A stretch of DNA of 64,000 nucleotides from Mayamaea pseudoterrestris (Eukaryota), in the NCBI GenBank assembly GCA_027923505.1, contig BROI01000022.1:310001-374000 (forward strand). The letters run 5' to 3'. Position numbers and translations under genes: made by a program. Of the stretch, positions 8,131 to 38,511 are shown one piece after another. Every line of letters starts with the position of its first letter. Positions within the stretch are counted from its first letter, which is position 1. The notes beneath the pieces were generated by a model that did not search any database, had not been told where the DNA came from, and saw only the letters and a program-made list of their open reading frames with translations.

Positions 8131-11100
8131 AGTATGTGAAATTCAATTCTATGTACTGTTTGTTCTTACTATGTTTGTTTGTTGCAGACAGTAGCAGAAT
8201 GAAACATACTGCTAGCTACTCACTGTCAGTAGCCTGGAGCTGGGCATGTGCTATCTGACACGATTCACATGCACCGGCCCGTCCTCAACGGCGAGCCAGA
8301 CAGTCAACGGACACGCCCGTCGGGTATTAGCGAAGATGGGCGATCCTGTTGCGACATCTGCGATCCTCGCCAGTAAAAAGAGCGATGGCTCGCCATGGAG
8401 GCAATCTTCAATTGCAGTCCTTAAAATTAGCAGGTTGCACACGAAAAACAGCAACCAGAGCGATACCTTTACTTGTCATAGTGCATGGTGCCTTGTATGC
8501 AGCATATAGTACACTAGCAGACGGAAAAGTAGCAGCGTGTTTAGAGGTGATATAGCCGGTTATCCTTGGTTCGATTCCGAGGTGCGCTACTTTTAACGCA
8601 TAGTGATACTACTTTTCTGTTGCATACTGCTATGGTAGCGTCCCTATCGAGAGATCTGGACTGAGGCTGCTGGTTCGAGTTGCGATCGAATCAAGCGAAG
8701 AAAAAGCAAAAATTCACTGGTTGCACGGGTTTGTCACGAACGAACGATGGGGAGTCGCGGACCCTGGGGAGTGCACAAAGATGCGCCGAGCCCGAAACGC
8801 CGCAGGAAAAACTGAAAGTGACATTCCCCCCGCGAGACGAAAATGCCAGCTGAAACGGAAGACGAGTTAGCACTATGACGCGCAAAGCTAGGGGGAGTAG
8901 CAGGTTGCACACGAAAAACAGCAACCAGAGCGATACCTTTACTTGTCATAGTGCATGGTGCCTTGGATGCAGCATATAGTACACTAGCGGACGGAAAAGT
9001 AGCAGCGTGCTTAGAGGTGACATAGCCGGTTATCCTTGGTTCGATTCCGAGGTGCGCTACTTGTATCGGCATAGTGATACTACATTCTGTTGCATACCTG
9101 CTAAATACTCATCATAATTTTATTTACATATCCTACGATAGGTACTTCACTTTGAATCTAAAAATAGACAACTGTCTATCGGAAACGGAAACAAACAACA
9201 TGTTGATTGTCGTACTTTTTCAAAAAGCACAATGATTCCTCACGTCTCTGTCTTCATGTCGAGTGTTGTTCAATGAGCACCTTTGATGGACGAAGTCATA
9301 TTCGCCTTTGTCTCCTTGGGCGCCTCTGATATCTGGGACCATCTGTCTGAATTTGGCGTGTAGTCCCCTCAGCATTCCTCTCGGACTTATGGTGTTGACG
9401 CGATTTGCGTCGACAGAAAGTACCTCAGAACCTCAGTACTGCTCTTCTGATATTTGTTCGGATATTTTCGTTGATCTTATGCCGCAAGAAGACGAAGGTT
9501 TACCCGACGGACGTCGTTGGGATATCAGGATCCTTCCTACTTGATGGTTCCTACTTGGCTGCAAAGCAAGTTTGAAGAACAATCTTTGCGAGCCGTCTTG
9601 CAGACCTCTCTTTGATTCAGTTTGCCCGTTGGTTGGATAACATGATCAACTTAAAGGCAAGCAACAGGACTCGTCGACCCGACAAAGACCCATTCTCGTA
9701 AACCATGGGCAACAAAGAAGCTTAAAGCAAAACATGATCCAAGTGTGCAAATACCATGCGCCAACTTGGGGTGGTCGGCAACCCAGCCGCTCAAATATAA
9801 ATTGAAAAAGAAAAACAATGGAGACGGCAAAATGGAGGGGAGCCGCTCAAAAAACTAACGAAGACCAGCACATGATAGTGGATGTTACAACAGAGGAACC
9901 AGTGCAAGTACAGAGGCAACCAGCAATCGGAGTTGATTGGGATCAAACAATTGGATCTTTAAAGCGTATCACGAATCTTGTCGCGGTTAAACAACCTACT
10001 AGACAAATTACGGAACATTCCTGTTGTCTTTCTTGGTAAAGCTAATGCTCTTCTACGCTTACCGCCCCTTTGCGACTCAGGGCATCGACTTGGTGTAGCC
10101 AACGGCACTGGTTGCCTCGAGTGCAAACGCCGTTTAATATCACAAACTGCTTGGCCGCTGGACTCTACCAAGATTGATTTTGCGATCGTTCCTTCCGAGT
10201 TTAACTTCAAAAGGATCGACAACTTCCCGGTGAGTCTTCCAACAGGATATCATCGACATGCTGCTGGGGCGAGACGTCTTAACACTCTTGACCATTGACT
10301 TTGGAGACAAACAAACATTGGGGTAATCAATCGATCAATGGTGACGATGGAGGATTTGAGCAATCGGCCAAAAACAAATCAGAGACTCTTTGTTTGGCGG
10401 TTTGTTCTATTCTCTGATACTGAACCAGACCTGCATACACAAATTTATCAACTAGTATAACATTCGACAGGCGATTGCGATCAATCAACTCATTTAATGA
10501 ACATACCGATTTAAAGCGTCTCTTCTGACCTTTCCCGCTCTCTTTTCAGGCAAGCGGCAAATACCCACGAGCTAGTCGTGACATTGATCCACAAGCTAAA
10601 CCAGTTCATAAGACATTATCCAGTGCCTCGTGCCTGAGCAAACCTTCAAGAAGACTCGATCGACTTCGAACTCGGACTGACCTTCCCTGATGGCGCCCTT
10701 GTATACCAAAAAGACAAACTGGCACCTTTGTTTCTGACTTTCGGGCGTTGAATAAAGTGATAAAGGCTTTGAGCCGTATCCATGAACTCTGGCGCCATAT
10801 TCCACAAAGCTTGTTTCAATGCAGTATTATACCTTCCAGTTGGACAAACACTCTGCGCATCGTTGTTTTTCTTTCGTGCCTTGCCAATGGGCGTCAATCA
10901 AGCCCCGATATTGCTCAAGAGGTGATGGAGAAAGTTTTACAAGGATTGCGCGTTGAAAAGTACCTTGATGGATGTGGTTGCTTTGCAACTGAAACTTGAC
11001 TCTCTTAGAACGGTTTTAAAGCGTCTCGAGGAAGCGGCTTTACAATCAATCAAGCAAGTGCATGGGCGTCAAGGAAACACGACTGGCTTGGGTACTGGCT

Positions 11101-11808
11101 CACGCCACAGGACTCAAACCCTGGCCCCAAAAAGTCAAGCAATTGTGGATATGAACCTCCTACCATCTCACAGTTGCGCTCATTCCTTGGTCTTGTAACT
11201 TCTTGTGAACATGTGCCTCGTCTGCACATCTTGCTCCTTTGTCTCATTCGGCCAAATACTTTTCAATGGTGCGCCTCAACAAAAGAAAAAGTTCTGGCAT
11301 GTTCTTCGTTTTTATCCTGATCATAACAAACCATTCGTCATCAAGACAGTACCTCTGATTATCAACTCGGCGCGTCATCCTTCAGATGCTCGAATGCCTA
11401 ATTTCTCGCGCAAACTCAACAGCGCCCAATCAATTACACCATTGAAGGAATTGCTAAGTATTGTTGAAACGCTCGAAACGTTTCGTTCGGTGCTGCTTGG
11501 TGCGCGTTGCAAATCCATACGGACCATAAAAATCTCACCACGTTGACCCTTCCAAACAACGCGTCGGCGTTGGCGTCTGTACTTGGAGGTTGAAGTTCCT
11601 TTATCTCAAAGGGAGCTTAACACTTTGCAGATGCTCTTTCGGGTTCCACAAAACTGTGGGGGAGACCCTGTTGATGTTTAAAGCAACAACAGGATCAAAA
11701 GAACGCAAACAGGTCATCGCGACATACCCATCCGATGACAACTAACGGTGTCAAATTGGCCATCACGATGGCGCGTTCTTGCACATTCAATTGAATCAAC
11801 ATTGGCGG
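8131..11808 (+). repeat. Degraded tandem duplicate of host flank plus the 5' part of the Gypsy element (probable assembly artefact)
   Basis: Begins with the same sequence as 11809 onward (offset 3678), including 116 bp of flank, the 5' LTR and the nested TRIM. It then follows gag-pol up to about 16165 with many short deletions. Confidence 0.85.
8428..9103 (+). mobile_element. Second copy of the tRNA-like TRIM, inside the duplicated block
   Basis: Same LTR-PBS-internal-PPT-LTR layout as 12106-12781; its 3' LTR has about 7 substitutions. Confidence 0.75.
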
Positions 11809-12206
11809 AGTATGTGAAATTCAATTCTATGTACTGTTTGTTCTTACTATGTTTGTTTGTTGCAGACAGTAGCAGAATGAAACATACTGCTAGCTACTCA
11901 CTGTCAGTAGCCTGGAGCTGGGCATGTGCTATCTGACACGATTCACATGCACCGGCCCGTCCTCAACGGCGAGCCAGACAGTCAACGGACACGCCCGTCG
12001 GGTATTAGCGAAGATGGGCGATCCTGTTGCGACATCTGCGATCCTCGCCAGTAAAAAGAGCGATGGCTCGCCATGGAGGCAATCTTCAATTGCAGTCCTT
12101 AAAATTAGCAGGTTGCACACGAAAAACAGCAACCAGAGCGATACCTTTACTTGTCATAGTGCATGGTGCCTTGTATGCAGCATATAGTACACTAGCAGAC
12201 GGAAAA

Positions 12207-12272
12207 GTAGCAGCGTGTTTAGAGGTGATATAGCCGGTTATCCTTGGTTCGATTCCGAGGTGCGCTACTTTT
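12207..12272 (+). ncRNA. tRNA-like Pol III module in TRIM 5' LTR (anticodon arm apparently missing)
   Basis: Consensus B box and T-arm CCTTGGTTCGATTCCGAGG, A-box-like TGTTTAGAGG, closing stem GTAGC/GCTAC, followed by TTTT. Confidence 0.7.
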
Positions 12273-12676
12273 AACGGCATAGTGATACTACTTTCTGTTG
12301 CATACCTGCTATGGTAGCGTCCCTATCGAGAGATCTGGACTGAGGCTGCTGGTTCGAGTTGCGATCGAATCAAGCGAAGAAAAAGCAAAAATTCACTGGT
12401 TGCACGGGTTTGTCACGAACGAACGATGGGGAGTCGCGGACCCTGGGGAGTGCACAAAGATGCGCCGAGCCCGAAACGCCGCAGGAAAAACTGAAAAGTG
12501 ACATTCCCCCGCGAGACGAAAATGCCAGCTGAAACGGAAGACGAGTTAGCACTATGACGCGCAAAGCTAGGGGAGTAGCAGGTTGCACACGAAAAACAGC
12601 AACCAGAGCGATACCTTTACTTGTCATAGTGCATGGTGCCTTGTATGCAGCATATAGTACACTAGCAGACGGAAAA

Positions 12677-12742
12677 GTAGCAGCGTGTTTAGAGGTGATA
12701 TAGCCGGTTATCCTTGGTTCGATTCCGAGGTGCGCTACTTTT
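12677..12742 (+). ncRNA. tRNA-like Pol III module in TRIM 3' LTR
   Basis: Same sequence as 12207-12272. Confidence 0.7.
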
Positions 12743-12880
12743 AACGGCATAGTGATACTACTTTCTGTTGCATACCTGCTAAAATACCATCATAATTTCC
12801 ATTTACACATCATCCTACGATAGGTACTTCACTTTGAATTCAAAATAGACAACTGTCTATCGGAAACGGAAACAAACAAC

Positions 12881-13981
12881 ATGTTGATTAGAGGAGTCGA
12901 CGTCAAGATCCCTTTGGTGCCTCGCGTCAAGTTTGAGTCGCTACCGAAACAAGATCTCACGTTTACCAAGCAAGATGGATCCAAGCACAAGCGTAAGATT
13001 CAGATTGCCAGTGACGAAGACGTCGTCTCAGTCCTTCGAGTAATCGAGGAGGTGGTTGGTGCAATGGAGCAGCTCGCCTTTGATGGACCGGCAGCCCATC
13101 GCATGAGGGTCCGCAAGGAATCCTTTCGCCTTTGTCTCCTTGGAGCGCCTCGTGATATCTGGGACCAGTCTGTACTAGCAGACGATACAATTGTGGCGTG
13201 GAATCAGTCCCTCAAGGCATTCCTCTCGGAGCTCATGGTGGTTGACGACGATTTGCGTCGACAGAAAGAGTACCTCAAGAACCTCAAGTTGCCTGACGGC
13301 TATACGGTTACCCAATCGATTAGTTTGTTGCGCAATATGTTCAAGTTGATGGCTTATATGCCGCAAGAAGACGAAGGAGTTTACCCGACGGACGTCCAGT
13401 ATACGGACGAGGATATCAAGGATCTCCTACTCGCGATGGTTCCTACTTGGCTGCAAAGCAAGTTTGAAGAACAATCTTTAACGAGCCGTCTTGCAGACCT
13501 CTCTTTGATTCAGTTTGCCCGTTGGTTGGATAACATGATCAACTTAAAGGCAAGCAACAGGACTCCAGTCGACACGAACGAAGGAGGCAGCCGTCGGAGC
13601 GGCAAACGCTCGCGTCGCAACGGTGGCAACGGCGGCGGCCAAAACAACGACCATGGAGGCAACGGGAACGCACGCAAGAAGCTTAAAGCAAACAACGATG
13701 CCAACGTGTGCAAATACCATGGCGGCCACACTTGGGAGCAGTGTTTCGGCAACCCCAAGGGCCCGCGCTACAAGCCGGGATTCAAAATCGACAAGTCGAA
13801 ATTGAAAAAGAAAAACAATGGAGGCGGCAACAATGGAGGCGGAGCCGCTCAAGAAGCTGACGAAGACCAGCACATGATAGTGGATGTTACAACAGAGGAA
13901 CCAGTACAAGCTACAGAGGCAAACGACAGCGAGTCTGAGGTTGATTGGGATCAAGCAATTGGAGCGGTCTTTGAAGAATGA
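12881..13981 (+). CDS. gag: Gypsy Gag-like protein
   Basis: 366-aa ORF after the 5' LTR; basic Gly/Asn-rich region and CKYHGGHTWEQC (CHHC-type) zinc knuckle. Confidence 0.88.
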   Translation: MLIRGVDVKIPLVPRVKFESLPKQDLTFTKQDGSKHKRKIQIASDEDVVSVLRVIEEVVGAMEQLAFDGPAAHRMRVRKESFRLCLLGAPRDIWDQSVLADDTIVAWNQSLKAFLSELMVVDDDLRRQKEYLKNLKLPDGYTVTQSISLLRNMFKLMAYMPQEDEGVYPTDVQYTDEDIKDLLLAMVPTWLQSKFEEQSLTSRLADLSLIQFARWLDNMINLKASNRTPVDTNEGGSRRSGKRSRRNGGNGGGQNNDHGGNGNARKKLKANNDANVCKYHGGHTWEQCFGNPKGPRYKPGFKIDKSKLKKKNNGGGNNGGGAAQEADEDQHMIVDVTTEEPVQATEANDSESEVDWDQAIGAVFEE

Positions 13982-16900
13982 GATACGGCGGCGGTCTCAG
14001 CGGCAGCCAGTGCGACGGAAGACGCTCTTGTAGCGGACGAAGTTAAACAAGCTACTAGCGACAAAGTTACGGATTACATTCCTGTTGTACTTATTGTCGT
14101 TGGTAAAGCTAATGGCAGTCGTTGCAAACGCACGCTTACCGCCCTTTGCGACTCAGGAGCATCGACAAGTTGGATTAGCCAAAGAGCGGCACATGGATTG
14201 CCTCAGTGCAAAGCGCCACGTTTAATATCACAAACTGCAGTTGGCAAACTGGAAAGCTCTACCAAGATTGATTTTGCCGAGTCGTTCCTTCCCGAGTTTA
14301 GCACTTCAAAAAGGATCGGCAACTTCCCCGTTCGAGTCTTCCAACAGGATATCAGATACGACATGCTGCTGGGGCGAGACGTCTTAACGGCGCTCGGATT
14401 GACCATTGACTTTGGAGACAAACAAATCAATTGGGGTAATCAATCGACTCCAATGGTGACGATGGAGGATTTGAGCAATCGGCCAAAACAAATCAGAGAC
14501 TCTTTGATTGAGCGGTTTGTTCTATTCTCTGATACTGAACCAGACCTGCATACAAGCGAGGAGATTTTATCAGCTAAGTATAACAAAGTGTCGACAGACG
14601 AGGTTGCCGATCAATCAACTCATTTAAATGAGGAGCAACGTACCGATTTAAAACGTCTCTTACGACGCTTTCCCGCTCTCTTTTCAGGCAAGCTTGGCAA
14701 ATACCCACACGAGCTAGTCCACATTGACATTGATCCACAAGCTAAACCAGTTCATAAAAGACATTATCCAGTGCCTCGAGTGCATGAGCAAACCTTCAAG
14801 GAAGAGCTCGATCGACTCGTCGAACTCGGTGTACTTGAGCCTTGCGGCCGCAGCGAATGGGCGGCGCCCACCTTTATTATACCAAAGAAGGACAAGACTG
14901 TACGCTTTGTTTCTGACTTTCGGGCGTTGAATAAAGTGATTAAAAGGCGCACGTTCCCGATGCCGCGTATCCATGAGCTACTGGCGAGGCGCAGCGGGTA
15001 CAAGTTCTTCACAAAGCTTGATATTTCAATGCAGTATTATACCTTCCAGTTGGACAAGGAAAGCAGCGAGCTCTGTACAATTGCAACGCCGTTCGGTTTA
15101 TTCCGTTACTTGCGCTTGCCAATGGGCGTCAATCAAGCCCCCGATATTGCTCAAGAGGTGATGGAGAAGGTTTTACAAGGATTGCGCGACGTTGAAAAGT
15201 ACCTTGATGACGTCGGTTGCTTTAGCGACACTTGGAAGGAGCACTTGACTCTCTTAGAGGCAGTTTTAAAGCGTCTCGAGGATAGCGGCTTTACAATCAA
15301 TCCAAGCAAGTGCGAATGGGGCGTCAAGGAAACCGACTGGCTTGGGTACTGGCTCACGCCGACAGGACTCAAACCCTGGCCCAAGAAAGTCCAAGCAATT
15401 GTGGATATGAAGCCTCCTACCAATCTCAAGCAGTTGCGCTCATTCCTTGGTCTTGTAACTTACTATCGAACCATGTGGCCTCGTCGGTCGCACATGCTTG
15501 CTCCTTTGACGAATCTCGTCGGCAAAAAGTCTTTTCAATGGGGTGCGCCTCAACAAAAAGCATTCGAGGAAATGAAAGCAGTTGCAGCAAGCGATGTTCT
15601 TCTTCGTTATCCTGATCATAACAAGCCATTCGTCATCAAGACAGATGCCTCTGATTATCAACTCGGCGCCGTCATCCTTCAAGATGGCGTGCCGGTCGCC
15701 TATTTCTCGCGCAAACTCAACAGCGCCCAAGTCAATTACACAACCATTGAAAAGGAATTGCTAAGTATTGTTGAAACGCTCAAAACGTTTCGTTCGATGC
15801 TGCTTGGTGCGCGTTTGCAAATCCATACGGACCATAAAAATCTCACCCACGAGTTGACCGCCTTCCAAACGCAGCGCGTCCTTCGTTGGCGTCTGTACTT
15901 GGAGGAGTTCGGACCCGAGTTCCTTTATCTCAAAGGGGAGCTTAACACTGTTGCAGATGCTCTTTCAAGGGTTCCAACGGCAAGGGAAACCTCTCTAGTG
16001 GGGGAGAGCCCTGTTGATGTTTTAAAGCAACAACAGGATGCCCGACAAAAGGAAGCGCAAGAGGCAGCAGTGCCCATGCGACATACCCATCACGATGACA
16101 ACTTACACGGTGTCAACGATGGCCATCACGATGGCGGCGTTCTTGCACATTCAATTGAATCAACAACAAACGACCATGGGGAAAGGCAAATTGAAGAGCT
16201 ATCAATTGCTAATGAAGGTTACTGTCTCCTACGGGACGAACCAGAGCTTGCAGAGTGCCTGCTCCTCCATCCGGAGTTCGACGAACAAGGGCGATATCCC
16301 CTGTCGTATTCAACCATTGCCGAGTATCAACAAGAAGATGCAACGCTAATGGCCGCAGTCCAAAACCAAGACGCGACAACCATACAATACAAACAACTTG
16401 GAGACGTTCAGATTGTTGTATTCCAAGCAGACGAACGCTGGCGAATCTGCATCCCCAGTGCGATCCTCGATCGCTTGATTCTTTGGTACCACCTCTCAAT
16501 GGCCCACGCTGGAATGACTCGATTAACAACGAGCATCAAGCAACACTTTTACCATCCTAAGCTCAAGCAGCGCGTCGAGCATCTCGTTGGTGCCTGCGAT
16601 ACTTGCCAACGCAACAAAGGAGGCAGCCGTCAATATGGAGAGCTGCCAGCGAGAGACGTGCGCGTCGCTCCTTGGTATGAAGTCCACGTTGACCTCATCG
16701 GCCCATGGAAAGTATCAGTGAACGGCATTGACTGTTATTTCAGAGCGTTAACGATGATTGACCCAGTTACTAACCTTGTCGAAATTGTTCGCTATCAGGA
16801 CAAGTCGGCGTATCATATCGGCCGTCTCTTTGAAGACACCTGGCTCTCTCGTTACCCTCGACCAATGCGACTCATTGCAGACCAAGGCAGTGAGTTTAAA

Positions 16901-17464
16901 GGCGCATTTGGAACCATCCTTGAACACAATGGGATTGAATGGCATGCCGCTTCGGCCAAGACGCCCACTGCTAACAGCATTTGCGAGCGCTGTCACCTCG
17001 TTATTGGCAACGTGCTTCGTACACTTGTACACGCTCATCCGCCCGAGGATTTGATGGAAGCTGACGATATAATCGATCAATGCCTCGCGACAGCAATGCA
17101 TGCAACACGAGTTGTATCAAGTGGAGCTCTTGATAACCTCTCTCCCGGCGCCGTCGTCTTTCAACGCGACATGTTTCTGGATATACCTTTGGTTGCCGAC
17201 ATTCTAGCTATCTCTGTTAAACGAGAAGCGATTGTCAATGAACGTTTGCTCCAAGCGAACCGTTCGAGACTGACTCATGACTTTAAAGTTGACGAGCAGA
17301 TCCTCAAAAAGGTATACGACCCTAACAAGCTCGAAGAACAATGGATCGGTCCTTATTCAATTGAACAAGTCCACGTTAATGGAACGGTTACCATTCGCCT
17401 CTCGCCTATGGTGACTGACCGAGTTAATATTCGACGTATCAAGCCGTACCGGCAAGACGTTTAA
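13982..17464 (+). CDS. pol: Gypsy Pol (aspartic protease, RT, RNase H, integrase), in frame with gag after a TGA
   Basis: ALCDSGAS protease motif (upstream of the tracked ORF start), RT YLDD, RNase H TDASDYQLGAV and EKELL, integrase HHCC plus VHVDLIGP and ADQGSEF, C-terminal GPY module. Confidence 0.95.
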   Translation, partial: DTAAVSAAASATEDALVADEVKQATSDKVTDYIPVVLIVVGKANGSRCKRTLTALCDSGASTSWISQRAAHGLPQCKAPRLISQTAVGKLESSTKIDFAESFLPEFSTSKRIGNFPVRVFQQDIRYDMLLGRDVLTALGLTIDFGDKQINWGNQSTPMVTMEDLSNRPKQIRDSLIERFVLFSDTEPDLHTSEEILSAKYNKVSTDEVADQSTHLNEEQRTDLKRLLRRFPALFSGKLGKYPHELVHIDIDPQAKPVHKRHYPVPRVHEQTFKEELDRLVELGVLEPCGRSEWAAPTFIIPKKDKTVRFVSDFRALNKVIKRRTFPMPRIHELLARRSGYKFFTKLDISMQYYTFQLDKESSELCTIATPFGLFRYLRLPMGVNQAPDIAQEVMEKVLQGLRDVEKYLDDVGCFSDTWKEHLTLLEAVLKRLEDSGFTINPSKCEWGVKETDWLGYWLTPTGLKPWPKKVQAIVDMKPPTNLKQLRSFLGLVTYYRTMWPRRSHMLAPLTNLVGKKSFQWGAPQQKAFEEMKAVAASDVLLRYPDHNKPFVIKTDASDYQLGAVILQDGVPVAYFSRKLNSAQVNYTTIEKELLSIVETLKTFRSMLLGARLQIHTDHKNLTHELTAFQTQRVLRWRLYLEEFGPEFLYLKGELNTVADALSRVPTARETSLVGESPVDVLKQQQDARQKEAQEAAVPMRHTHHDDNLHGVNDGHHDGGVLAHSIESTTNDHGERQIEELSIANEGYCLLRDEPELAECLLLHPEFDEQGRYPLSYSTIAEYQQEDATLMAAVQNQDATTIQYKQLGDVQIVVFQADERWRICIPSAILDRLILWYHLSMAHAGMTRLTTSIKQHFYHPKLKQRVEHLVGACDTCQRNKGGSRQYGELPARDVRVAPWYEVHVDLIGPWKVSVNGIDCYFRALTMIDPVTNLVEIVRYQDKSAYHIGRLFEDTWLSRYPRPMRLIADQGSEFKGAFGTILEHNGIEWHAASAKTPTANSICERCHLVIGNVLRTLVHAHPPEDLMEADDIIDQCLATAMHATRVVSSGALDNLSPGAVVFQRDMFLDIPLVADILAISVKREAIVNERLLQANRSRLTHDFKVDEQILKKVYDPNKLEEQWIGPYSIEQVHVNGTVTIRLSPMVTDRVNIRRIKPYRQDV

Positions 17465-17609
17465 GGTTTGCGCAGCTCCCTTGTTCGATTCATCAAGATC
17501 GAGCTAAATTATGGCACCCTGTACGACAGGAAGGCCGCTGCCACTTTACAAACAAGAAGGACGACATTTTTCCCCAGCTACCCTCATGGTCGCTCTTAGT
17601 GTGGGAGAG

Positions 17610-17836
17610 TGTGCTATCTGACACGATTCACATGCACCGGCCCGTCCTCAACGGCGAGCCAGACAGTCAACGGACACGCCCGTCGGGTATTAGCGAAGAT
17701 GGGCGATCCTGTTGCGACATCTGCGATCCTCGCCAGTAAAAAGAGCGATGGCTCGCCATGGAGGCAATCTTCAATTGCAGTCCTTAAAATACCATCATAA
17801 TTTCCATTTACACATCATCCTACGATAGGTACTTCA
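17610..17836 (+). repeat. Gypsy 3' LTR (uninterrupted)
   Basis: TGTGCT...CTTCA, preceded by the PPT and followed by TSD GGGCA. Confidence 0.95.
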
Positions 17837-21353: not shown

Positions 21354-21835
21354 GGTGAGCAAGGATGGGTGTGACGAGATTGAAAGAATGGATGGATGGA
21401 GGTCGACGAAAATGTCGCACCACGAGACTTTACGTCCGACCGTCACTCACTTGGATTGTTAGCTTTTCTCACGATATCTCGGACAATCATCTCGCTGATA
21501 TGCAGCAACATAGAATAGCTTTGCAAAGAAAAAGAGAAAATGATGCTTATACGAGCTATCACATTCTATAAGTTACTCCAGACCATGTGCGACACAATTG
21601 GGTGCCGGATGTTTCAGTTTGCAGTGGCCAATGCTTCACTTAACGATCGACCGACTTGGCGGTTAACAGTGATTTTAGCAATTTGCAGAACATGCAGGAC
21701 CTATGGTTGTTCTGGCATTATGGTTGCTCTGGCAATGAAGTGTTTGTTGACGAATGAGCGGGGGGCATCAGCAGCAGTGCATAATGTTGTCGTGCTGAAA
21801 ATGCTATCAAAGAATGGAACTATTGGGAGTTAATG

Positions 21836-27485: not shown

Positions 27486-28243
27486 CTTAAAACTATGCAT
27501 TCAGTTGGAGCAAGCAGTCAGCATTTGTAATGAATACACTTCTACATACCAAATGAAGTACCAAGCTGCCGCACATACGGGTGTACCGCATGGGCTTATG
27601 GAAAGTGCCACGCAGTAAGGTCAGACCCCGGTCCCTCGGTGCAATGAAAATGAGGGTTGTAAGGTGAAGCTATATGAGGGATTTTGTGGTTGTCCATGGC
27701 TGCCGAAGAAACGTGAAAGCCAATAATCTTGAGTCCTACACTGGTACTGAACATTTTGACGATCAATTCAACCATGGCGACCATCGATCCGTTGCTGACT
27801 TGCTTCACTGAAACTCTCTGCCTGGGCTTTTTTTGATCGTAACACTCAGTAATTATAACAATTGATTGATATGGAGGCAAATGGACTAAATCAGCAAGTT
27901 GACTCCAAACCAACTCACTCACGCACCCTGGACGACTTTTGGGATGATTACTACACCAATGACAATAATGAGGCTGGAGAAGTTTTCCAGGATACGGAAT
28001 GGATTTGACGCAATGTAGCGGATTGGTAGCCTGCGTCCTAGGTGACATGGAGCGGTATTGAATGGAGTGTATGACGAGAAGCTGTGGAAGTTGAAGGAGC
28101 TACAGGGGCGTCCGGTAAAATGACTTTTCGTAACTAAATGTCATACTGGCACTCAAGTTTCCGTTGACGCTTCGAAGATCAGTTGAAGGCAATGCCGGCG
28201 CGGCGCGCCAGCCCGTCCAGCTGTTTCAGAGTCTGCGATTTGC

Positions 28244-28930: not shown

Positions 28931-29042
28931 AATCAGATAGAATCTGAAAGTATCTTTCACTTTCAGACAGTGTCTGAAAGTAATTTTCTGATTCAGACAA
29001 TGTCTGAAAGTATCTTTCTGATTCAGACAACGTCTGAAAGTA
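28931..29042. repeat. Four palindromic units at 30-bp period (right subterminal array)
   Basis: Same motif and spacing as 28244-28358. Confidence 0.92.
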
Positions 29043-30491: not shown

Positions 30492-31318
30492 CGTACATTT
30501 AGTCGAAGTTGAAGGTGTATCCTACCTTCCTACCGAGGAGCAATGCACCTATCTTACTATATGTGTATGTTGACGCCCCAACGGCATCGTGGAAGAGCAA
30601 TCGTGATTGCCCACGATGGGCGAGCGAGGTTAATTTTGTAGCAACTAATTAAATCCTCTCAGTTAATCACCAACGCCTTCGTTGTTGTAGCAGTTGCAAT
30701 TACACGAGTCCTTTGCTCTTGTTGTTGCTCTTAATAACAGTCTCCATTCAACCTATTGAGTGAGAAGCATTTGCTTGTGCAGTTTCTAGAAACAGAGCGC
30801 AAGGTATCGGCAGAAAGGTTGAACTGTTGTTCGTCTGTCGTCTAGCGTGTCGTCTGTTGCAGGATGCGAACGAAAACAGCGAAAATCGGGCAAGTCACAC
30901 CGAATGTCCGATAGGGTGACACAGCGGCACTCGCGGCTCACCACAGCCTCACGATCGCGTGATGCGTGGCAGCGACGGCTTCGAAGCGATTCAACAAGTA
31001 TATTGCTGAAACTAGTGCGATATAGAGTAGAAACAAGCAGACTTACTAAGCTTGAAGAGTTAAGAAAGCGATTTATTCGTCTCTCGTATTGTAGCAACTG
31101 CAAGCTTGGATTGGCCATCCAAGGACAGCTACAAGCGAAAGGTGCAACGATTTGATTTACAAGTTACAAGATTAACACTGTCTTGAGACTCATTGCCTCG
31201 GCATAGAGACTTTATCGACGAAGAGTACTATTGATTTACGAAGTAACGTGGACGCACGTTGGTTCTTGGCCCGGAAAGTTCCGCAGGTGATAGCAAGAAC
31301 ATTGTCACGACGACAACG

Positions 31319-34300
31319 ATGGCGGAAACTCGCGCGCAGAAAGACGCGGCGTTTGCGCATGTTTACGAAGAGAACGTAGGCGTTTTCCAAGATCCTCAGT
31401 TCAAGGAGTTATTCGACGAACTCGGAGTAGAATCGCTTACGCAACTGATCGAGATGGAGTACGACGATTTCGCGACGAAGTGGAACGTCACGACGACGAC
31501 AACGACGACGACTGACGATGGCGACAATGTCACGCAGGAAACGAGCGAACACTCGCTAACGAAGATGAAACAACGCACGATCACGAACGCGATCGAATGG
31601 TATTTGGCGCAAGAGTCGCCGGACATCAAGACATGGTCGCAACTGACCACCGAAACGCTGGCGACGTTCGTCACAGCACGAGCGAAGGAACGAGTCCAAG
31701 CGCGCAACATTGCGAGCGTGGGCAGCGGAAGCGGAGCGAAACCTCCAGCGAAGGAAAGCGAAACGGAATCCAAGAAGGACGAATCCAAGGACTCCACGCT
31801 AACGAACGAAGGCAACGAGTCGAAGCCTGACTCGGCCGACAAGGTGCCACCGACGAGTGTGGACGTGGACCGAAGCAGTCACCGACATCCGTACTGGACC
31901 TCGGCGACGACGAAGACGACGAGAAGTATTCAGACCAATTTACGAAGTCTATCAAGTTCTCGGCGAGGGATTGTAAAGAAATGAAGCTGGATTCCTCGTG
32001 GAAACAGTGGATTTCCGAGTTGAAAGTCATCGCTACATTGCATGACTTCCACGAAGTCTTTGACGACGATTATGACCCGAAGGAAAAGGGACCGAAAGAA
32101 CAGAAGGCGTATGCAAAGAAGAATGTGTTTGTATACAGGATCTTTCTCACGCACTGTCGAACTCCGTCTGCATCACTCGCAGTACAGCAGTTCAAGAAGA
32201 CGATGGACGGACGCGAAGTCTACCAACGATTGCGAACGCGATACGAAGAAGGCGCTACTGCTCACATCGAGAAGGAACGCGCGCGAACGGAACTGCAGGG
32301 AATGCGGCTGACCGAGAAGTGGTCACGGCCGACGATCGAATTTCTCGCACTGTTCTACAAGAAAGTCATCTGGCTGCTCGAAATGGACGCAGAAGCTCTG
32401 ACAGGTTTACAACGATACGACATGCTACGCGACGCTTTCTCCGAGCACACAGGATTCAGCGCATCACTAGCAGGTTTTGACGGAATGATTGCCATCAAGA
32501 AACACATGGGGCAACACGACTCGGAAGACAATTTCGCGCAGTTGTACGCGCACTTAGAAGAGTGCTGCATCAAGTATGACAAGAAACACCCATCGACGAC
32601 GAAGACTAAGCGCACAATCAATCAAGCGCAGTCTAGTGGAACGAAAGGAGGCGGCGGCGGCAATGGCGGCGCGACTCCAAGCGGCTTATCGGCGGAACGA
32701 TTTGCAGCGATCATGAAGAAACCTCACGCGAGCGTGAAGGATGAAGTCTGGTTGGAGATGAAGTTTGATCAGCGAAAGCAGTTGAAGGACAAGCGTGCGA
32801 CGGCGCCCAAGACACCCGAAAACGGATGGCGACCGCGCAACCAACGAGGCACGGCTACGACGCAGACGCAAGTCAACGCGGCGCATCAAGAGCGTCACGC
32901 GACGGAATCTGTAGCGAACGATCACGCAAGCGTTCCTGGCACGATTAATATTCAGCCCGGCAATAGTGGAATGTCAGTCCAAACGGCTGCACGATCGGTT
33001 CTGCAAGCGAACAATGCGAGTACTACAACTCAGCAAGTGACAGGATCGTTGACGACTGATAACACCGGACGAGGTACATTCAGCTTCAACATGCATCGTC
33101 GTATGCGCGTCAATCGCGCACACTACGAGCGGATCAACGAAGGCGCGCTCATCGACAGCGGCGCGAACGGAGGCTTATGCGGAGGAGACATGCTCGTCGT
33201 TTCGGAAACGAACGCCGAGGTGGATGTGACTGGTATTGACGATCATATTGTCCCAGCTCTCAAGATTGGCACTGCAGCTGGACTGGCAAAGACCCTTAGT
33301 GGCGAAACCATTCTGCTTCTGTGTCACCAGTATGCTTTAAAGCGAGACGGACCGACGATTCATTGCCCGAATCAATTGCGCGCAATGGGACATCGCGTCG
33401 ACGATATTCCGACCATGTTTGGCGGAACGCAACGAATTACGACGAACATTGAGGCTACGTTTTGCCATTGGCAATTCGCGATGGCCTGGTGTACTTGGAC
33501 GTGACGAAACCCACGTTCGATGATTTGGATAAGTATCCGACTGTCATCATGACGTCGGACGTGCCGTGGGACTCGACTGTTTACGATGTCGAGCACGCGC
33601 ACGACGATTTCGACGAACGAGATCATGATTATGGATCTTTCGACGAACGATTCGATGATGACGGTATCACGCACCGCAATCGTCACACGCCGACACGCAC
33701 TGGCGACGAACTTGACGTACTGATCAATCGGTGCGTGCGACACGCTCAGTTTTCACGCGTTAATTTGCGGAAGCTAAGAAGCAAGGAACCGGACTATAAT
33801 GCTCTTCGGCCGTACCTCGGATGGGTCCCGACTGAGCGCGTTCAACAGACTTTACGTCACACGGAAGCATGGTATCATCTCAGCGCACACCCGCGATTAC
33901 CATTTCGACACCTCACGAAATCACGATTTCCGGCCGCGAACGTTCAGCGGTTGCGCGAACTATTCGCCACGGACACGATACACTCTGACACGCCAGCTTT
34001 GGATGATGGAATTTAGGGCATGGGGAGCTACTAAGATGCAGCTCTTTGTTGGACGAGAAAGTTTTTACACGCGCGGCTACCCGATGAAGTCGGAGAGCGA
34101 AATGTCAAACGCGTTAGAGGATTTTATCCGCGAAGTGGGCGCTCCTAACGGACTGCTCAGCGACAATGCCAAGTCGGAGACTGGCAAGGCTGTGAGGGAT
34201 CTCTGTCGGATGTACAATATTCCTCAAGTGACCACAGAACCGGGTCATCCAGAATAAAATCCATGCGAACGTCACACGTCGCACATTAAGCCAATGATGG

Positions 34301-34770
34301 AGAACCTCCAACGAGATTCGGGTTCGCCAGGCCATTGCTGGGTTTTGCTGATTAAATTCGTAATCATGATACTGAACGTCCTCGCGACGAAATCGCTGGG
34401 ATGGCGCACGCCAACGGAAGTTGCGTTCGGAAATCTGCCGGATATTTCGCCTTTGTTACATTTCAAGTGGTGGGAACCGGTCACGTTTGAGGCGCAGGGG
34501 AGCTTTCCCTCGGCGGTACGATCTGGCAACGGCCGATTCGTGGGCATCGCAGAGAATAGCGGTCCGCACATGACTTTTCTCGTTCTGACGGACGACACGC
34601 TTCAGGCGATTCCGCGCTCCAACGTGGTCTCGCGCAGCTACTTGTTACCACGAGAGTTGCCTTCCTTCCCTGAGTCTGGAGGGAGATTTCTGAAGAAGCT
34701 ACACGCGCAAGCGAGCGAAATTTTGAAACTCCAGATCTCGCGACAGGACGCTACCATAGCACGCATGTGA
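31319..34770 (+). pseudogene. Copia gag-protease-integrase region, fragmented
   Basis: Consecutive ORF pieces in changing frames; integrase motifs FATDTI, LLSDNAKSE, TEPGHPE*NPCER with premature TAA at 34255-34257. Confidence 0.85.
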
Positions 34771-37106
34771 CAGAAAGTAGTCACGACAACTACGAAGGAA
34801 ACGACGACGAAACAATTCCGATGGCGAACCACGCCAACGTACCAGCGAAGTTCTTCAGAAGGGCTGAGCAAGAATCAGGGAATAAATGCCCTCTGTTCTC
34901 TCCAAGCGAACTCATCGGACGCACGTTCGTAAGGGAACACGAAAACGGTCAGAAAATGCGAGCGACTGTATGCGAATATATCGAAGTACGCGATAACGAG
35001 CTACTCGAAACGACGAAAGGTTTCCTAATCCAAATGGGAGAGGAGCCAGCGAAAGACTTAATAAGTTACAACGAACTGTCGGATTTAATCGAACGACAGA
35101 TGGACGAAGATATACGAAACGATCCGGCGACTCAGTGGGTATTCACGAAGGTAATCGGACACGAGCTTAATTTGAAACCGAACGATCCGACATACAAAGG
35201 AAGTTCAAGTAACGTTCTCGTCGAATGGACTGACGGAACGACGACGTGGGAGCCTCTCGCGATCATGAAGAAGGACGATCCGATAACGATCGCAGAGTAT
35301 GGACTCAAGCACGGCTTACTCGACAAGCCAGGATGGAAGCAGCTGGAGCATTACACTCGGAAGCGAAAGAAGTTTCGACAGATGGTAACAGCGGCGAAAC
35401 GAAAATCGAAAGCAAACGGCGTACGCTACAAATTCGGCGTAAGGTTGCCGCGCAATTATAAAGATGCGAAAGCTCTCGACGAGATCAACGGCAACACGCT
35501 GTGGACGGATGCGATTCGAACGGAATTAAATCAGATAAATGATTACGACACGTTCGCAGATCAAGGAGTCGGTAAGGTTATGCCGGCGCCGTGGAAACGA
35601 ATAAACGTGCACATGATATTCGATGTCAAGCACGATTTGCGACGGAAAGCACGACTCGTTGCAGGAGGACATATGACAGAGCCGCCGAAGGATTCAGTTT
35701 ACTCGGGCGTTGTGTCATTGCGAAGTCTACGAATGGTAGCGATGTTAGCGGAACTCAACGGTCTGGAACTGTGGGCAGCTGACGTCGGCAACGCATACTT
35801 GGAAGCGAAAACGAAAGAGAAGGTTTATATCGTGGCAGGTCCGGAGTTCGGGGAGCTCGAGGGTCACACGCTCACGATCGTGAAGGCATTATACGGTCTT
35901 CGCACGTCAGGCGCACGCTGGCACGAGCACTTTGCAGACACGCTCCGCGACATTGGCTTCATGCCGTGTATCGCAGAACCGGACGTGTGGATGCGCGATA
36001 AAGGCACGCACTACGAATACGTTTGTGTGTATGTCGACGATTTAGCGATAGCGATGAAGAATCCGAAGGAACTAACGAATCTTTTAATTGAGAACTACAA
36101 CTACAAGTTGAAGGGCGTCGGTCCATTGGCATATCATTTGGGCGCAGACGTTTGGCGAGACGACGACGGCGTACTCTGCTTCGGAGCGAAGAAGTACGTC
36201 ACAAGACTACTAGCGAACTACAAAGAAATGTTCGGCGAGGAACCGCGACCGCAGACAAGTCCACTACGCGACGGCGATCATCCGGAACTCGACGAAACGA
36301 AAGAACTTGACGACGACGGAATTGCGAAGTATCAATCGATAATTGGTGCGTTGCAATGGGCAGTAAGTTTATGTCGATTCGACATTCACTGTGCTGTCAT
36401 GACTATGGGGAGATTCCGAGCTGCGCCACGAGCGGGGCACTTGGAACGGTTGAAGCATATTTGCGGATACTTACGAAGATACCCGGATGGAGCGATTCGA
36501 TTCAACGTTTCGATTCCAACGGACGAGCGATACGCGACAGTTGACAAGATGGATTGGGATTACAGTGTGTACGGCAAGATCTGCGAAGAGCTTCCGTGGA
36601 ACATGCCCACGCCGCGCGGCAAGGCGGTGCGAATGTCAACGTTCGAAGATGCGAACCTGTACCACGATTACACGACGGGACGGGCAGCGATGGGCATGCT
36701 ACACATGTTGAATGGAACAGTCGTTGATTGGTTTTCGAAACGCCAAGCGACGGTCGAGACGGCGACGTACGGCTCGGAGTTTGTAGCAGCGAGAGTGAGC
36801 ACGGAGCAGATCATGGATCTTCGCTTCACGCTACGCATGTTGGGAGTTCCGCTCGACGGACCTTCATGGATGTTTGGAGACAACAAGTCGGTAACGCAAA
36901 GCAGCAACCTACCGCACTCTAGTCTGACGAAGCGACACAATGCACTGGCATTTCACCGTGTACGCGAAGCGATTGCGGCGGGAATTATTAATTTCAACCA
37001 CATCATGGGAACGACAAACCCGGCGGATGTACTTACCAAGTTTCTTCCACGGGCTACGGCAAGCAAGCACTTAAAGAACCTGCTCTTCAAGGAATCTAAC
37101 TATTAG
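34767..37106 (+). CDS. Copia Pol C-terminal part: chromodomain-like segment, reverse transcriptase, RNase H
   Basis: KARLVAGG, ADVGNAYL, KALYGL, YVDD, ETATYGSEFVA, GDNKSV, NPADVLTK; upstream VLVEWTDGTTTWEPL. Confidence 0.9.
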   Translation: MTESSHDNYEGNDDETIPMANHANVPAKFFRRAEQESGNKCPLFSPSELIGRTFVREHENGQKMRATVCEYIEVRDNELLETTKGFLIQMGEEPAKDLISYNELSDLIERQMDEDIRNDPATQWVFTKVIGHELNLKPNDPTYKGSSSNVLVEWTDGTTTWEPLAIMKKDDPITIAEYGLKHGLLDKPGWKQLEHYTRKRKKFRQMVTAAKRKSKANGVRYKFGVRLPRNYKDAKALDEINGNTLWTDAIRTELNQINDYDTFADQGVGKVMPAPWKRINVHMIFDVKHDLRRKARLVAGGHMTEPPKDSVYSGVVSLRSLRMVAMLAELNGLELWAADVGNAYLEAKTKEKVYIVAGPEFGELEGHTLTIVKALYGLRTSGARWHEHFADTLRDIGFMPCIAEPDVWMRDKGTHYEYVCVYVDDLAIAMKNPKELTNLLIENYNYKLKGVGPLAYHLGADVWRDDDGVLCFGAKKYVTRLLANYKEMFGEEPRPQTSPLRDGDHPELDETKELDDDGIAKYQSIIGALQWAVSLCRFDIHCAVMTMGRFRAAPRAGHLERLKHICGYLRRYPDGAIRFNVSIPTDERYATVDKMDWDYSVYGKICEELPWNMPTPRGKAVRMSTFEDANLYHDYTTGRAAMGMLHMLNGTVVDWFSKRQATVETATYGSEFVAARVSTEQIMDLRFTLRMLGVPLDGPSWMFGDNKSVTQSSNLPHSSLTKRHNALAFHRVREAIAAGIINFNHIMGTTNPADVLTKFLPRATASKHLKNLLFKESNY

Positions 37107-38511
37107 GTATGACTTGAGGGGAGTTGCAGGATGCGAACGAAAACAGCGAAAATCGGGCAAGTCACACCGAATGTCCGATAGGGTGACACAGCGGCACTCG
37201 CGGCTCACCACAGCCTCACGATCGCGTGATGCGTGGCAGCGACGGCTTCGAAGCGATTCAACAAGTATATTGCTGAAACTAGTGCGATATAGAGTAGAAA
37301 CAAGCAGACTTACTAAGCTTGAAGAGTTAAGAAAGCGATTTATTCGTCTCTCGTATTGTAGCAACTGCAAGCTTGGATTGGCCATCCAAGGACAGCTACA
37401 AGCGAAAGGTGCAACGATTTGATTTACAAGTTACAATCTGTCGCCCTCTCAGCGTTTGCCACGATTGCTCCTTTCGCCTAGTCGTCAATGGTTTCAATTC
37501 CTATCTCGAGCGTCCACCGTGGGCGGGCGGAATCTCCTCGAGCGTCCTCCTTCACCATGGGCGGGCGGGCAGGTGAGCAGGTGATGCTGCCTCGAATCTC
37601 GAACGAGGCGAGGCGCGTCACGCGAGGCGCGTCACCGAATTTTTCAAAACGTCGAAATTCTGCCAAGATTCGTCGCTTTTGCACTGACGTTGCACTTTCG
37701 CCGCCGCTTGCTCGATCGATCTAAAACACAAAAAATATTCTCTCGTGGATCTTCATCTTCGTCTCGAATAGATTCGACCATGCCGCCAAAGAAGAAGAAA
37801 GGAGACAAGGAAGGAGGTGAACAGCCACCAAACGATGAAGAAAACGTTGAAACACCAAAGTTGAAAGCCAAACGGAAAGGTAAGAGTGCAATCTTCGTGT
37901 ATGGCTGATAAATTGTCACGTGCGTTCTATGCATTCTCATCTTTTTTCCTTGCTTGTACATGAATAGGGCGTTCCAAATCATCACCTCCTGCATTATGCC
38001 CACCTCTTAAAGTGCATGAGCCGGAAGGGTTAGAGGACTCGAGAATCATTGACTGATGAACGAAAGGGACCGCGACAGTGCAGAACGTATTGCCGCAAAA
38101 GCAGCCGAAGACCAAAGGCTCTGGGATGCAGCTGCAAGGGCACACAATCCACATGCAGATCAAGAGGCTCTCCATGCTCAACATTGGGCTGAGATTGATA
38201 ACATGACCATGGACGAAATTGAAGAAGACGTGCAGCATATTACTGGTAATCCATTGCGTGTCACGTATCGCACCATTGCTGGCCAACGTCTGACATCACC
38301 TGCTGGCATTCAAAGTCCTCCCATGAGGCAGCGGCGGCAGCCACCGATACCACGCCCAGTCTTTGCAGAAGCTGGCCAAGGCCCCCCGGATGAGCCGCCT
38401 GCAGGAGGGGCAGCTGCACTCGTTGCCGGTAACGCTGGAGCTGCTTCTTCACGTATGTCTGACAGCTCTTCACAGTCAGATGCAAGAACTGAGTCATCGG
38501 TAGAGACTGTT

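What the first reader, a model, noticed from the sequence alone, without database searches (positions are those of the whole stretch)
12106..12781. Miniature LTR element whose LTRs carry a tRNA-like Pol III gene (TRIMp3/Helenus-like) in a probable diatom
Seen: comparing the two Gypsy LTRs isolates a 676-bp insert made of two 206-bp repeats, a TGG-starting PBS, a 264-bp non-coding interior and a PPT, with a target duplication. Each repeat has a TATA-like TATAGTA about 25 nt upstream of a ~60-nt tRNA mimic (A-box-like segment, consensus B box GGTTCGATTCC in a T-arm, acceptor-like stem) followed by TTTT. Known: Cassandra (5S) and Helenus (tRNA-like) TRIMs carry Pol III-derived modules; from memory they are described in plants, fungi and animals, not stramenopiles. 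Inference: a new small-RNA-bearing TRIM lineage with non-canonical TA...TA LTR ends.
Basis: partly seen in the sequence, partly recalled or inferred. Interest (0 to 1): 0.88.

Follow-up and report, generated by a model that had tools for sequence, protein, structure and literature searches.

The report
Miniature LTR retrotransposon with tRNA-like LTRs
A 676-base non-coding jumping gene in a diatom genome carries a decayed tRNA-like gene in each of its two terminal repeats, a design so far described only from fungi, animals and one plant.

Summary
Window 12106-12781 is a terminal-repeat retrotransposon in miniature (TRIM). It has two identical 206-bp LTRs with an 8-bp terminal inverted repeat, a PBS (TGGTAGCGTCC), a 264-bp interior and a short PPT. 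It sits in the 5' LTR of a Ty3/Gypsy element whose 3' LTR keeps the empty site, giving a 4-bp TSD AAAT (5 or 6 bp by ambiguity).

Each LTR holds an exact B box, an A-box-like TAGCAGACGG and a TTTT. At that cut-off 1 of 2000 LTR shuffles is called. Default ARAGORN and Rfam's tRNA model do not call it.

The second window copy (8428-9103) lies at the same site in a duplicated flank, so it is not independent. Contigs of public runs show another 5' flank and diverged LTR copies.

Host genes are diatom-like. The paper that defines this kind (Helenus/TRIMp3) lists fungi, animals and Selaginella only.

Pol III transcription is untested. PPT, LTR start and TSD length resemble a Copia element in the window.

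Verdict: a probable first diatom member of a known kind.

The parts
12102..12105 (+). Left target-site duplication AAAT (4-bp reading)
   Evidence: the empty site at 17787-17790 in the host 3' LTR has one AAAT.
12106..12311 (+). 5' LTR, 206 bp, TAGCAGGT...ACCTGCTA
   Evidence: 100% identical to 12576-12781. The terminal inverted repeat is read.
12183..12189 (+). TATA-like TATAGTA, overlapping the start of the cloverleaf
   Evidence: Its function is not tested.
12186..12268 (+). tRNA-like module: 83-nt cloverleaf with a long variable arm and an 8-nt anticodon loop
   Evidence: ARAGORN calls it from -ps98 down. At -ps98, 1 of 2000 LTR shuffles and 0 calls in 1.28 Mb of shuffled window. Not called at default or by Rfam.
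12193..12202 (+). A-box-like TAGCAGACGG at cloverleaf positions 8-17
   Evidence: Against Kojima's TRGCY...YGG (PMC10886601, section 3.5) it matches 4 of 5 and 3 of 3.
12246..12256 (+). B box GGTTCGATTCC in the T arm (CTTGG / CCGAG stem)
   Evidence: 4 of 4 window matches lie in TRIM LTRs, against 0.07 expected.
12269..12272 (+). TTTT directly behind the tRNA-like module (possible Pol III terminator). It also pairs with AAAA at 12203-12206 in the MFE fold.
   Evidence: the only T4 runs of the element. for the fold.
12312..12322 (+). Primer-binding site TGGTAGCGTCC
12312..12575 (+). Non-coding interior, 264 bp, purine-rich
   Evidence: The longest sense ORF is 49 aa. A 126-aa antisense ORF (12370-12750) has no Pfam hit at E<=1.
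12569..12575 (+). Polypurine tract AGGGGAG
   Evidence: the same GGGGAG is followed by a similar LTR start in the Copia element.
12576..12781 (+). 3' LTR (tRNA-like module 12656-12738, B box 12716-12726, TTTT 12739-12742)
12782..12785 (+). Right target-site duplication AAAT
8428..9103 (+). Second TRIM copy, 98.1% identical, its own LTRs 95.2% alike. It has the same insertion site in a duplicated flank (8131-9208 ~ 11809-12889).
   Evidence: 13 differences.
11925..17836 (+). Host Ty3/Gypsy element. LTRs are 11925-12105 plus 12782-12831, and 17610-17836 (TG...CA, 227 bp). TSD is GGGCA. The empty TRIM site is at 17787-17790.
30857..37436 (+). Ty1/Copia element (LTRs of 313 bp, TSD TCTG). Its PPT and LTR start resemble the TRIM's. 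It is a candidate relative of the helper.
   Evidence: RVT_2; rve.
34730..34781 (-). Antisense stretch inside the Copia element, 87% like the TRIM's LTR end plus PBS plus the next 17 nt
   Evidence: (53 nt, E 8.5e-10). It is carried in 5.5-6.3-kb contigs of runs X1, X3 and X4.

Best explanation
[quoted passage not shown] It is copied by the usual LTR-element route.
- An RNA running from the 5' LTR to the 3' LTR is reverse-transcribed from a tRNA annealed to the PBS TGGTAGCGTCC.
- Plus-strand synthesis starts at the AGGGGAG tract.
- A helper's integrase inserts the DNA with a 4-bp duplication.
- All proteins come in trans. The most likely source is a Ty1/Copia relative of the element at 30857-37436.

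Each LTR contains a decayed tRNA-derived unit: a long-variable-arm cloverleaf with an A-box-like and a consensus B box, followed by TTTT. That places it in the structural class called Helenus/TRIMp3.

Shown: the anatomy, the insertion event, the tRNA-like cloverleaf at near-default stringency, and presence in several public runs with at least one other flank.

Inferred: the helper, the tRNA origin, and above all that the boxes act as a Pol III promoter. I put about 0.35 on that last point on its own.
For: Anatomy and empty site. Contigs of X1 and X5 bridge the empty site.

Recent insertion: 0 of 206 LTR positions differ.

tRNA-likeness:
- ARAGORN at -ps90 makes 5 calls in the 64-kb window. 4 are the four TRIM LTRs and 1 is in a tandem repeat at 28593-28686.
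- The call persists up to -ps98.
- Controls: 4 of 2000 LTR shuffles and 21 calls in 1.28 Mb of shuffled window at -ps90; 1 of 2000 and 0 at -ps98.
- The B box occurs only in the TRIM LTRs (4 of 4, 0.07 expected).
- In a diverged LTR contig (X1 record 3, 14 changes in 127 nt), 6 of the 9 listed changes fall in the cloverleaf. Of those 6, 5 are compatible with it (U.G to U-A, G-C to G.U, R57, two loop positions) and 1 breaks a pair.

Family:
- 8 of 8 listed runs, from 2 studies, hold half or more of the sampled words.
- X3 has a different 5' flank at 12105.
- X1 has two diverged copies.
- TRIM contig depth against Gypsy-LTR contig depth is 38.8 to 7.05 (X1), 15.6 to 4.46 (X3) and 871 to 38.5 (X5). 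The tool warns that depth is no copy number.

Helper: GGGGAG plus LTR start is 84% alike over 32 nt with the Copia element. Both have 4-bp TSDs, whereas the Gypsy host makes 5 bp.
Against: - Default ARAGORN finds no tRNA.
- Rfam's tRNA model gives no match at E<=10, even on 105 nt.
- The cloverleaf stretch folds no better than shuffles: z +0.89, and 166 of 200 shuffles fold at least as well. The MFE prefers a 9-bp AAAAGUAGC/GCUACUUUU stem (z -2.24).
- The anticodon loop has 8 nt, and the A box matches only in part.
- TTTT right behind the module would stop Pol III before the PBS. It is lost in 1 of the 4 window LTRs and in the diverged contig.
- The two window copies are one insertion event. 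The other loci rest on single short contigs of depth 2.5-3.6.
- The Copia element's own PBS region is unlike the TRIM's.
Confidence: 0.68

Rival explanations
1. It is an ordinary Pol II-transcribed TRIM. The tRNA-likeness is either chance plus a structured R/U5 hairpin, or a dead relic without promoter function.
For: - No call by default ARAGORN or by Rfam.
- The MFE fold is a long hairpin closed by AAAAGUAGC/GCUACUUUU (z -2.24, 2 of 200 shuffles), not a cloverleaf.
- TATAGTA at 12183-12189 could serve Pol II.
- TTTT is not kept in c1_3LTR or in the diverged contig.
Against: - The shuffle controls (1 of 2000 at -ps98) argue against pure chance.
- The exact B box sits in a 5-bp T stem.
- Relic status cannot be excluded.
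Confidence: 0.22
2. The LTR-borne tRNA-like RNA is itself the primer. It would be made by Pol III, trimmed and CCA-tailed, and its 3' end would then anneal to the element's own PBS.
For: The genomic 3' end of the module (…GCGCTAC, 12262-12268) shares CGCTAC with the reverse complement of the PBS (…GGGACGCTACCA). With a CCA tail the last 8 nt would match. The cloverleaf has an A1-T72 pair.
Against: - The match is only 5-6 encoded letters, seen post hoc.
- A cellular tRNA probably matches the PBS over more positions. By recall, TGGTAGC is the usual initiator-tRNA type of PBS.
- Kojima found no such complementarity in Helenus (PMC10886601, section 3.6).
- The module is degenerate.
Confidence: 0.06
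3. It is not a mobile family but a one-off: a local duplication or an assembly artefact that happens to look like LTR-PBS-PPT.
For: Both window copies share one site and flank. No relatives turned up in the metagenome, prokaryote-genome or viral collections.
Against: - A clean empty site with a TSD.
- A terminal inverted repeat, a PBS and a PPT in the right places.
- Another flank and diverged copies in public runs.
- The collections searched hold hardly any diatom DNA.
Confidence: 0.03

Closest known systems
Helenus (TRIMp3), Kojima 2024, PMC10886601 (abstract and sections 2.1, 3 and 4 read; one supplement searched)
   Same: - A TRIM under 1000 bp with PBS, PPT and a 4-6-bp TSD.
- A tRNA-like sequence with A and B boxes (GGTTC) inside each LTR, unlikely to encode a working tRNA.
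- A PBS of the tRNA 3'-end type.
- A helper inferred from PBS or terminal similarity.
   Different: - The host is a diatom. Helenus is listed from fungi, six animal phyla and Selaginella.
- No sequence comparison with Helenus consensus sequences was possible here.
- The TSD is 4 bp although the likeliest helper is Copia. Kojima pairs 4 bp with Gypsy in animals and 5 bp with Copia in fungi.
- The LTR ends are TA...TA.
- The module has a long variable arm.
- Its 3' end resembles the primer implied by the PBS.
Cassandra (plant TRIM with 5S rRNA in the LTRs; PMC7215508 and PMC10853983 seen as search listing and abstract start only; transcription details recalled)
   Same: A TRIM whose LTRs hold a small-RNA gene with an internal Pol III promoter and a terminator.
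   Different: The module here is tRNA-like, not 5S. There was no 5S match in the Rfam scans. Cassandra is confined to green plants.
tRNA-derived SINEs (SINE2)
   Same: A short non-coding retroelement with a tRNA-derived head bearing A and B boxes. Kojima proposes that a SINE2 inserted in a TRIM LTR gave rise to Helenus.
   Different: This element has LTRs, a PBS and a PPT. It has no LINE-derived tail or A-rich end. No free-standing copy of the module is in the window.
Retrozymes (TRIM-like elements with hammerhead ribozymes; PMC5680766, listing and abstract start only)
   Same: A small non-autonomous LTR element with a functional RNA motif in the LTRs.
   Different: No hammerhead match in the Rfam scans at E<=10.

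Membership tests
TRIM (terminal-repeat retrotransposon in miniature) | Two short direct LTRs flanking a short non-coding interior, total under about 1 kb | tested here: met
   206 + 264 + 206 = 676 bp. No sense ORF above 49 aa. The antisense 126-aa ORF has no Pfam hit.
TRIM (terminal-repeat retrotransposon in miniature) | PBS next to the 5' LTR and PPT next to the 3' LTR | tested here: met
   TGGTAGCGTCC at 12312 and AGGGGAG at 12569-12575.
TRIM (terminal-repeat retrotransposon in miniature) | Target-site duplication of 4-6 bp with a demonstrable empty site | tested here: met
   Empty site in the host 3' LTR and in contigs of X1 and X5. AAAT, or 5-6 bp by ambiguity.
TRIM (terminal-repeat retrotransposon in miniature) | A dispersed multi-copy family | tested here: inconclusive
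   No genome is held. The window holds one event in two copies. Public-run contigs give one other 5' flank (X3), two diverged copies (X1) and higher contig depth than the host LTR.
Helenus / TRIMp3 (PMC10886601) | A tRNA-derived sequence inside the LTR (found there by Censor against Repbase tRNA/SINE2, and by tRNAscan-SE) | tested here: inconclusive
   ARAGORN cloverleaf at 98% of the default threshold, with shuffle controls of 1 in 2000. No call at default or by Rfam's tRNA model. Censor, Repbase and tRNAscan-SE are not on hand.
Helenus / TRIMp3 (PMC10886601) | Box B with GGTTC conserved | tested here: met
   GGTTCGATTCC in 4 of 4 window LTRs. GGTTCAATTCT in the diverged contig.
Helenus / TRIMp3 (PMC10886601) | Box A with TRGCY ... 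YGG | tested here: inconclusive
   TAGCA...CGG at cloverleaf positions 8-17: 4 of 5 and 3 of 3.
Helenus / TRIMp3 (PMC10886601) | Transcription by RNA polymerase III from the LTR | not testable with these tools
   No RNA holder is listed. This is also unproven for Helenus itself (section 4.1).
Cassandra / Ajax | A 5S rRNA-derived sequence in the LTR | tested here: not met
   No 5S rRNA match at E<=10.
Retrozyme | A hammerhead ribozyme in the LTR | tested here: not met
   No hammerhead match at E<=10.

The most novel reading that the evidence does not exclude
The element carries its own primer gene. The LTR module would be transcribed by Pol III, matured like a tRNA and CCA-tailed. It would then anneal through its CGCUACCA end to the PBS of the element's RNA. 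A 53-nt stretch of the Copia helper RNA complementary to the TRIM's U5-PBS region would help both RNAs enter the same particle. That would be a parasitic retroelement supplying its own priming and packaging handles.
Probability: 0.06. Interest if true: 0.8.

Novelty: new member of a known kind. Interest (0 to 1): 0.45.

Why it matters
- If the family is confirmed genome-wide, it extends small-RNA-bearing TRIMs (TRIMp3) from plants, fungi and animals to diatoms, and so to the stramenopile-alveolate-rhizarian branch of eukaryotes. That would support repeated, independent birth of this design.
- It warns that tRNA predictions in diatom genomes may include LTR-borne pseudo-tRNAs.
- With identical LTRs and different abundance in different public runs, it may be a recently active element. 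That would make it usable as a marker or as a tool for studying retrotransposition in diatoms.
- It offers a compact case for asking whether Pol III can make a retrotransposon template.

Tried and rejected
- Whole-genome search: no genome is held for this window.
- Earlier findings of the scan: nothing by sequence or by genome; by words only unrelated Ty3 and HERV-L notes.
- Exact-pattern scans with the LTR-end/PBS junction and with the tRNA-like core found 0 loci in metagenome contigs, genome contigs and viral contigs. These collections hold little diatom DNA, so this says nothing about the family.
- RNA: no RNA holder is listed among the 8 runs.
- No contig covers 11600-11905.
- The protein-atlas search on the FAD-binding ORF gave no usable hit.
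- Nested element inside the Copia element: no LTR-like direct repeats at 33000-35800. The antisense PBS-like stretch lies between the integrase core (rve, 33778-34257) and RVT_2. Residues 1-160 of that ORF have no homologues at E<=0.001. A coding versus inserted origin stays open.
- ARAGORN in mitochondrial modes: 0 calls at default (-mt, -mtmam); at -mt -ps90, 3 calls, one of them (mtRNA-Tyr, LTR positions 88-163) overlapping the module; these were not followed up.
- The antisense 126-aa ORF has no Pfam hit. I read it as a by-product of the purine-rich sense strand.
- Literature searches for TRIM, TRIMp3 or non-autonomous LTR elements with tRNA in diatoms (passages) found no such report.
- Comparison with Helenus consensus sequences was left out, because those sequences are not held by the session's tools.

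Full report
**1. What is there**

Window 12106-12311 and 12576-12781 are 206-nt direct repeats, 100% identical. Read:
- Each repeat begins TAGCAGGT and ends ACCTGCTA, an 8-bp terminal inverted repeat.
- The 5' repeat is followed at once by TGGTAGCGTCC (12312-12322).
- The 3' repeat is preceded at once by AGGGGAG (12569-12575).
- The 264 nt between them are purine-rich, with no sense ORF above 49 aa.
- A 126-aa antisense ORF (12370-12750) has no Pfam match at E<=1. I take it for a by-product of the strand's composition.

**2. It is an insertion**

The element lies in the 5' LTR of a Ty3/Gypsy element at 11925-17836.
- The pol ORF 13982-17464 carries Asp_protease_2, RVT_1, RT_RNaseH, Integrase_H2C2 and rve.
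- The LTRs run TG...CA, 227 bp, with 5-bp TSD GGGCA.
- The 3' LTR is uninterrupted. 17610-17790 equals 11925-12105, and 17785-17836 equals 12780-12831, both at 100%.
- The 6-nt overlap TAAAAT leaves the TSD as AAAT (4 bp) if the LTR keeps its symmetric TA end, or 5-6 bp otherwise.
- Contigs of public runs X1 and X5 also join 12099/12100 to 12780 in diverged copies of the Gypsy LTR.

**3. The second copy in the window is not independent**

8428-9103 is 98.1% identical to the element (13 differences). It lies at the same site inside a duplicated block, 8131-9208 ~ 11809-12889 at 98%. That block includes 116 bp of flank outside the Gypsy LTR. The interiors that follow are only about 82% alike. 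So the window documents one insertion event.

**4. The tRNA-like module**

Against a tRNA reading:
- Default ARAGORN finds nothing in the window.
- Rfam gives no tRNA, 5S or hammerhead match at E<=10, on 1101 nt or on 105 nt.

For a tRNA reading:
- With ARAGORN's threshold lowered, an 83-nt cloverleaf appears at 12186-12268. It has a 7-pair acceptor stem with one mismatch, a D arm, an anticodon arm with an 8-nt loop, a 4-bp variable arm, and a T arm CTTGG/TTCGATT/CCGAG.
- It is called from -ps98 downwards.
- At -ps90 the whole window gives 5 calls. 4 are the four TRIM LTRs; one of them, at 8978-9060, is called tRNA-Ser(GCT). 1 is in a tandem repeat at 28593-28686.
- Shuffle controls: 4 of 2000 LTR shuffles and 21 calls in 1.28 Mb of shuffled window at -ps90. 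At -ps95 the figures are 1 of 2000 and 2. At -ps98 they are 1 of 2000 and 0.
- The B-box pattern GGTTCGANTCC (a recalled consensus) occurs 4 times in the window, all in the TRIM LTRs, against 0.07 expected.
- Cloverleaf positions 8-17 read TAGCAGACGG. This fits Kojima's TRGCY...YGG in 4 of 5 and 3 of 3 letters (section 3.5 of PMC10886601).
- TTTT follows one base after the discriminator. With its twin in the 3' LTR it is the only T4 run in the element.

Also against:
- The cloverleaf stretch folds no better than shuffles (z +0.89; 166 of 200 shuffles fold at least as well).
- The MFE closes a 70-nt structure with AAAAGUAGC/GCUACUUUU (z -2.24; 2 of 200).
The TATAGTA it placed 25 nt upstream overlaps position 1 of the cloverleaf.

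**5. Variation**
- The four window LTRs keep the B box. One of them (8898-9103) has TTGT in place of TTTT.
- A diverged contig (X1 record 3, depth 2.5, 14 changes in 127 nt) lists 9 changes away from its ends. 6 of them lie in the cloverleaf.
- Of those 6, 5 fit it: 12225 turns U.G into U-A; 12256 turns G-C into G.U; 12251 keeps a purine at T-loop position 57; 12218 and 12235 lie in loops.
- 1 of the 6 (12260) breaks a C-G pair, unless its partner, which is hidden near the contig end, changed too.
- 12269 and 12271 destroy the T4.
- This is one low-depth contig, and the tool warns that such differences may be errors.

**6. Is it a family?**
- No genome is held.
- 8 of 8 listed public runs, from 2 studies and five organism codes, hold at least half of the sampled words. 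4 of them may be the source of the assembly.
- I laid 4 of the 8: X1, X3, X4 and X5.
- X3 has a contig that enters the LTR at 12105 from a different flank.
- X1 has two diverged LTR pieces, one of them followed by sequence unlike the PBS.
- The TRIM contigs have mean word depth 38.8, 15.6, 17.2 and 871.1. Gypsy-LTR contigs have 7.05, 4.46, none and 38.5.
- The tool states that depth is no copy number, so I take this only as a hint of several copies and of differences between samples.
- 8 further pieces were not shown.

**7. Helper**

A Ty1/Copia element lies at 30857-37436.
- Its LTRs are identical over 314 nt. It has RVT_2 and rve.
- Its TSD is TCTG, read.
- It has the same GGGGAG tract followed by a similar LTR start: 84% over 32 nt, E 0.017 (alignment).
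- It also makes a 4-bp TSD, unlike the Gypsy host.
- Its LTR end and the sequence after it are unlike the TRIM's.
- Unexpectedly, its interior holds on the antisense strand (34781-34730) a 53-nt stretch 87% like the TRIM's LTR end, PBS and next 17 nt (E 8.5e-10).
- Contigs of 5.5-6.3 kb in X1, X3 and X4 carry this stretch, so it belongs to the Copia family.
- It lies between the integrase core and RT. Residues 1-160 of that ORF have no homologues at E<=0.001, and no nested LTRs were found.
- I cannot explain it. One idea is RNA-RNA pairing between helper and TRIM.

**8. Mechanism**
- Shown: the structure of an LTR retroelement, and one clean integration.
- Inferred from established knowledge of LTR elements: tRNA-primed reverse transcription from the PBS, plus-strand priming at the PPT, and integration by a helper's integrase.
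- By recall, TGGTAGC is the initiator-tRNA type of PBS common in Copia elements. This was not tested, because no tRNA set is on hand.
- If Pol III starts at about 12186 it must read through the first TTTT and stop at the second. R would then equal the tRNA-like module, U3 would be 80 nt and U5 39 nt. This is speculation.
- The alternative is Pol II from TATAGTA.

**9. A further observation**

The module's encoded 3' end (…GCGCTAC) shares CGCTAC with the reverse complement of the PBS. After CCA addition its last 8 nt would match the PBS. Kojima looked for such complementarity in Helenus and found none (section 3.6). I rate self-priming at about 0.06.

**10. Organism and literature**
- A WDR55-like ORF (19998-21446, minus strand) has unnamed best hits at 77% and 68%.
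- 7 of its 120 listed hits carry a recognisable organism name and all are diatoms, at 43-50%: Epithemia, Fistulifera, Nitzschia sp., Fragilaria, Cylindrotheca, Nitzschia inconspicua and a MMETSP entry whose name is cut off.
- PMC10886601 defines Helenus as TRIMs with tRNA-derived LTR sequences. It lists fungi, six animal phyla and Selaginella. I read the abstract and sections 2.1, 3 and 4.
- The words diatom, stramenopil-, oomycet- and three diatom names do not occur in its text.
- 6 stramenopile genus names (four diatoms, Phytophthora and Ectocarpus) do not occur in the one supplement held as text. Other supplements may exist that I could not see.
- Searches for TRIMp3 (6 papers, 1 relevant) and for diatom with TRIM, LARD or non-autonomous LTR gave no report of such an element in diatoms. 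Passages checked in two diatom papers gave none either.
- Repbase and Dfam could not be searched.

**11. Verdict**

This is a real TRIM with a probably tRNA-derived, Pol III-type module in its LTRs. By structure it is a Helenus-type element, and apparently the first from a diatom. Its promoter function, copy number and helper remain to be shown.

Noticed in passing
window 8131-11808 versus 11809-17836: A block made of 116 bp of flank, the Gypsy 5' LTR and the nested TRIM is duplicated 3.7 kb upstream at 98-100% identity. The Gypsy interiors that follow are only about 82% alike, and the first one stops at 11801. This could be a mosaic from gene conversion, unequal recombination or assembly.
   Followed up: partly
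window 34730-34781, minus strand: The Copia element's interior carries, in antisense, a 53-nt stretch 87% like the TRIM's LTR end plus PBS. Copia RNA would thus be complementary to the TRIM's U5-PBS region. Its origin and meaning are unexplained.
   Followed up: partly
window 30857-37436: A Ty1/Copia element with identical 313-bp LTRs ending TT...AA and a 4-bp TSD TCTG. Its gag and integrase region is split over several frames, and only weak Pfam hits lie outside RVT_2.
   Followed up: partly
window 663-4913, minus strand: A kinesin gene whose motor domain is split at profile position 88/89 between two adjoining stop-to-stop ORFs in one frame. This is probably a short intron that holds a stop.
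   Followed up: no
window 28219-29102; 38507-38686; 58229-58534: Tandem repeats of 30-nt, 45-nt and 102-nt period. The 102-nt array lies inside the Deltex-like ORF 56579-59647. The relaxed ARAGORN call at 28593-28686 lies between the two blocks of 30-nt repeats listed (28219-28388 and 28903-29102).
   Followed up: no
window 12377-12391, in runs X5-X8: In run X5 the A-rich stretch of the TRIM interior is replaced by a longer A run (loose ends of 15-23 A). The TRIM contig there has 22 times the depth of the Gypsy LTR contig, against 3.5 to 5.5 times in X1 and X3.
   Followed up: no
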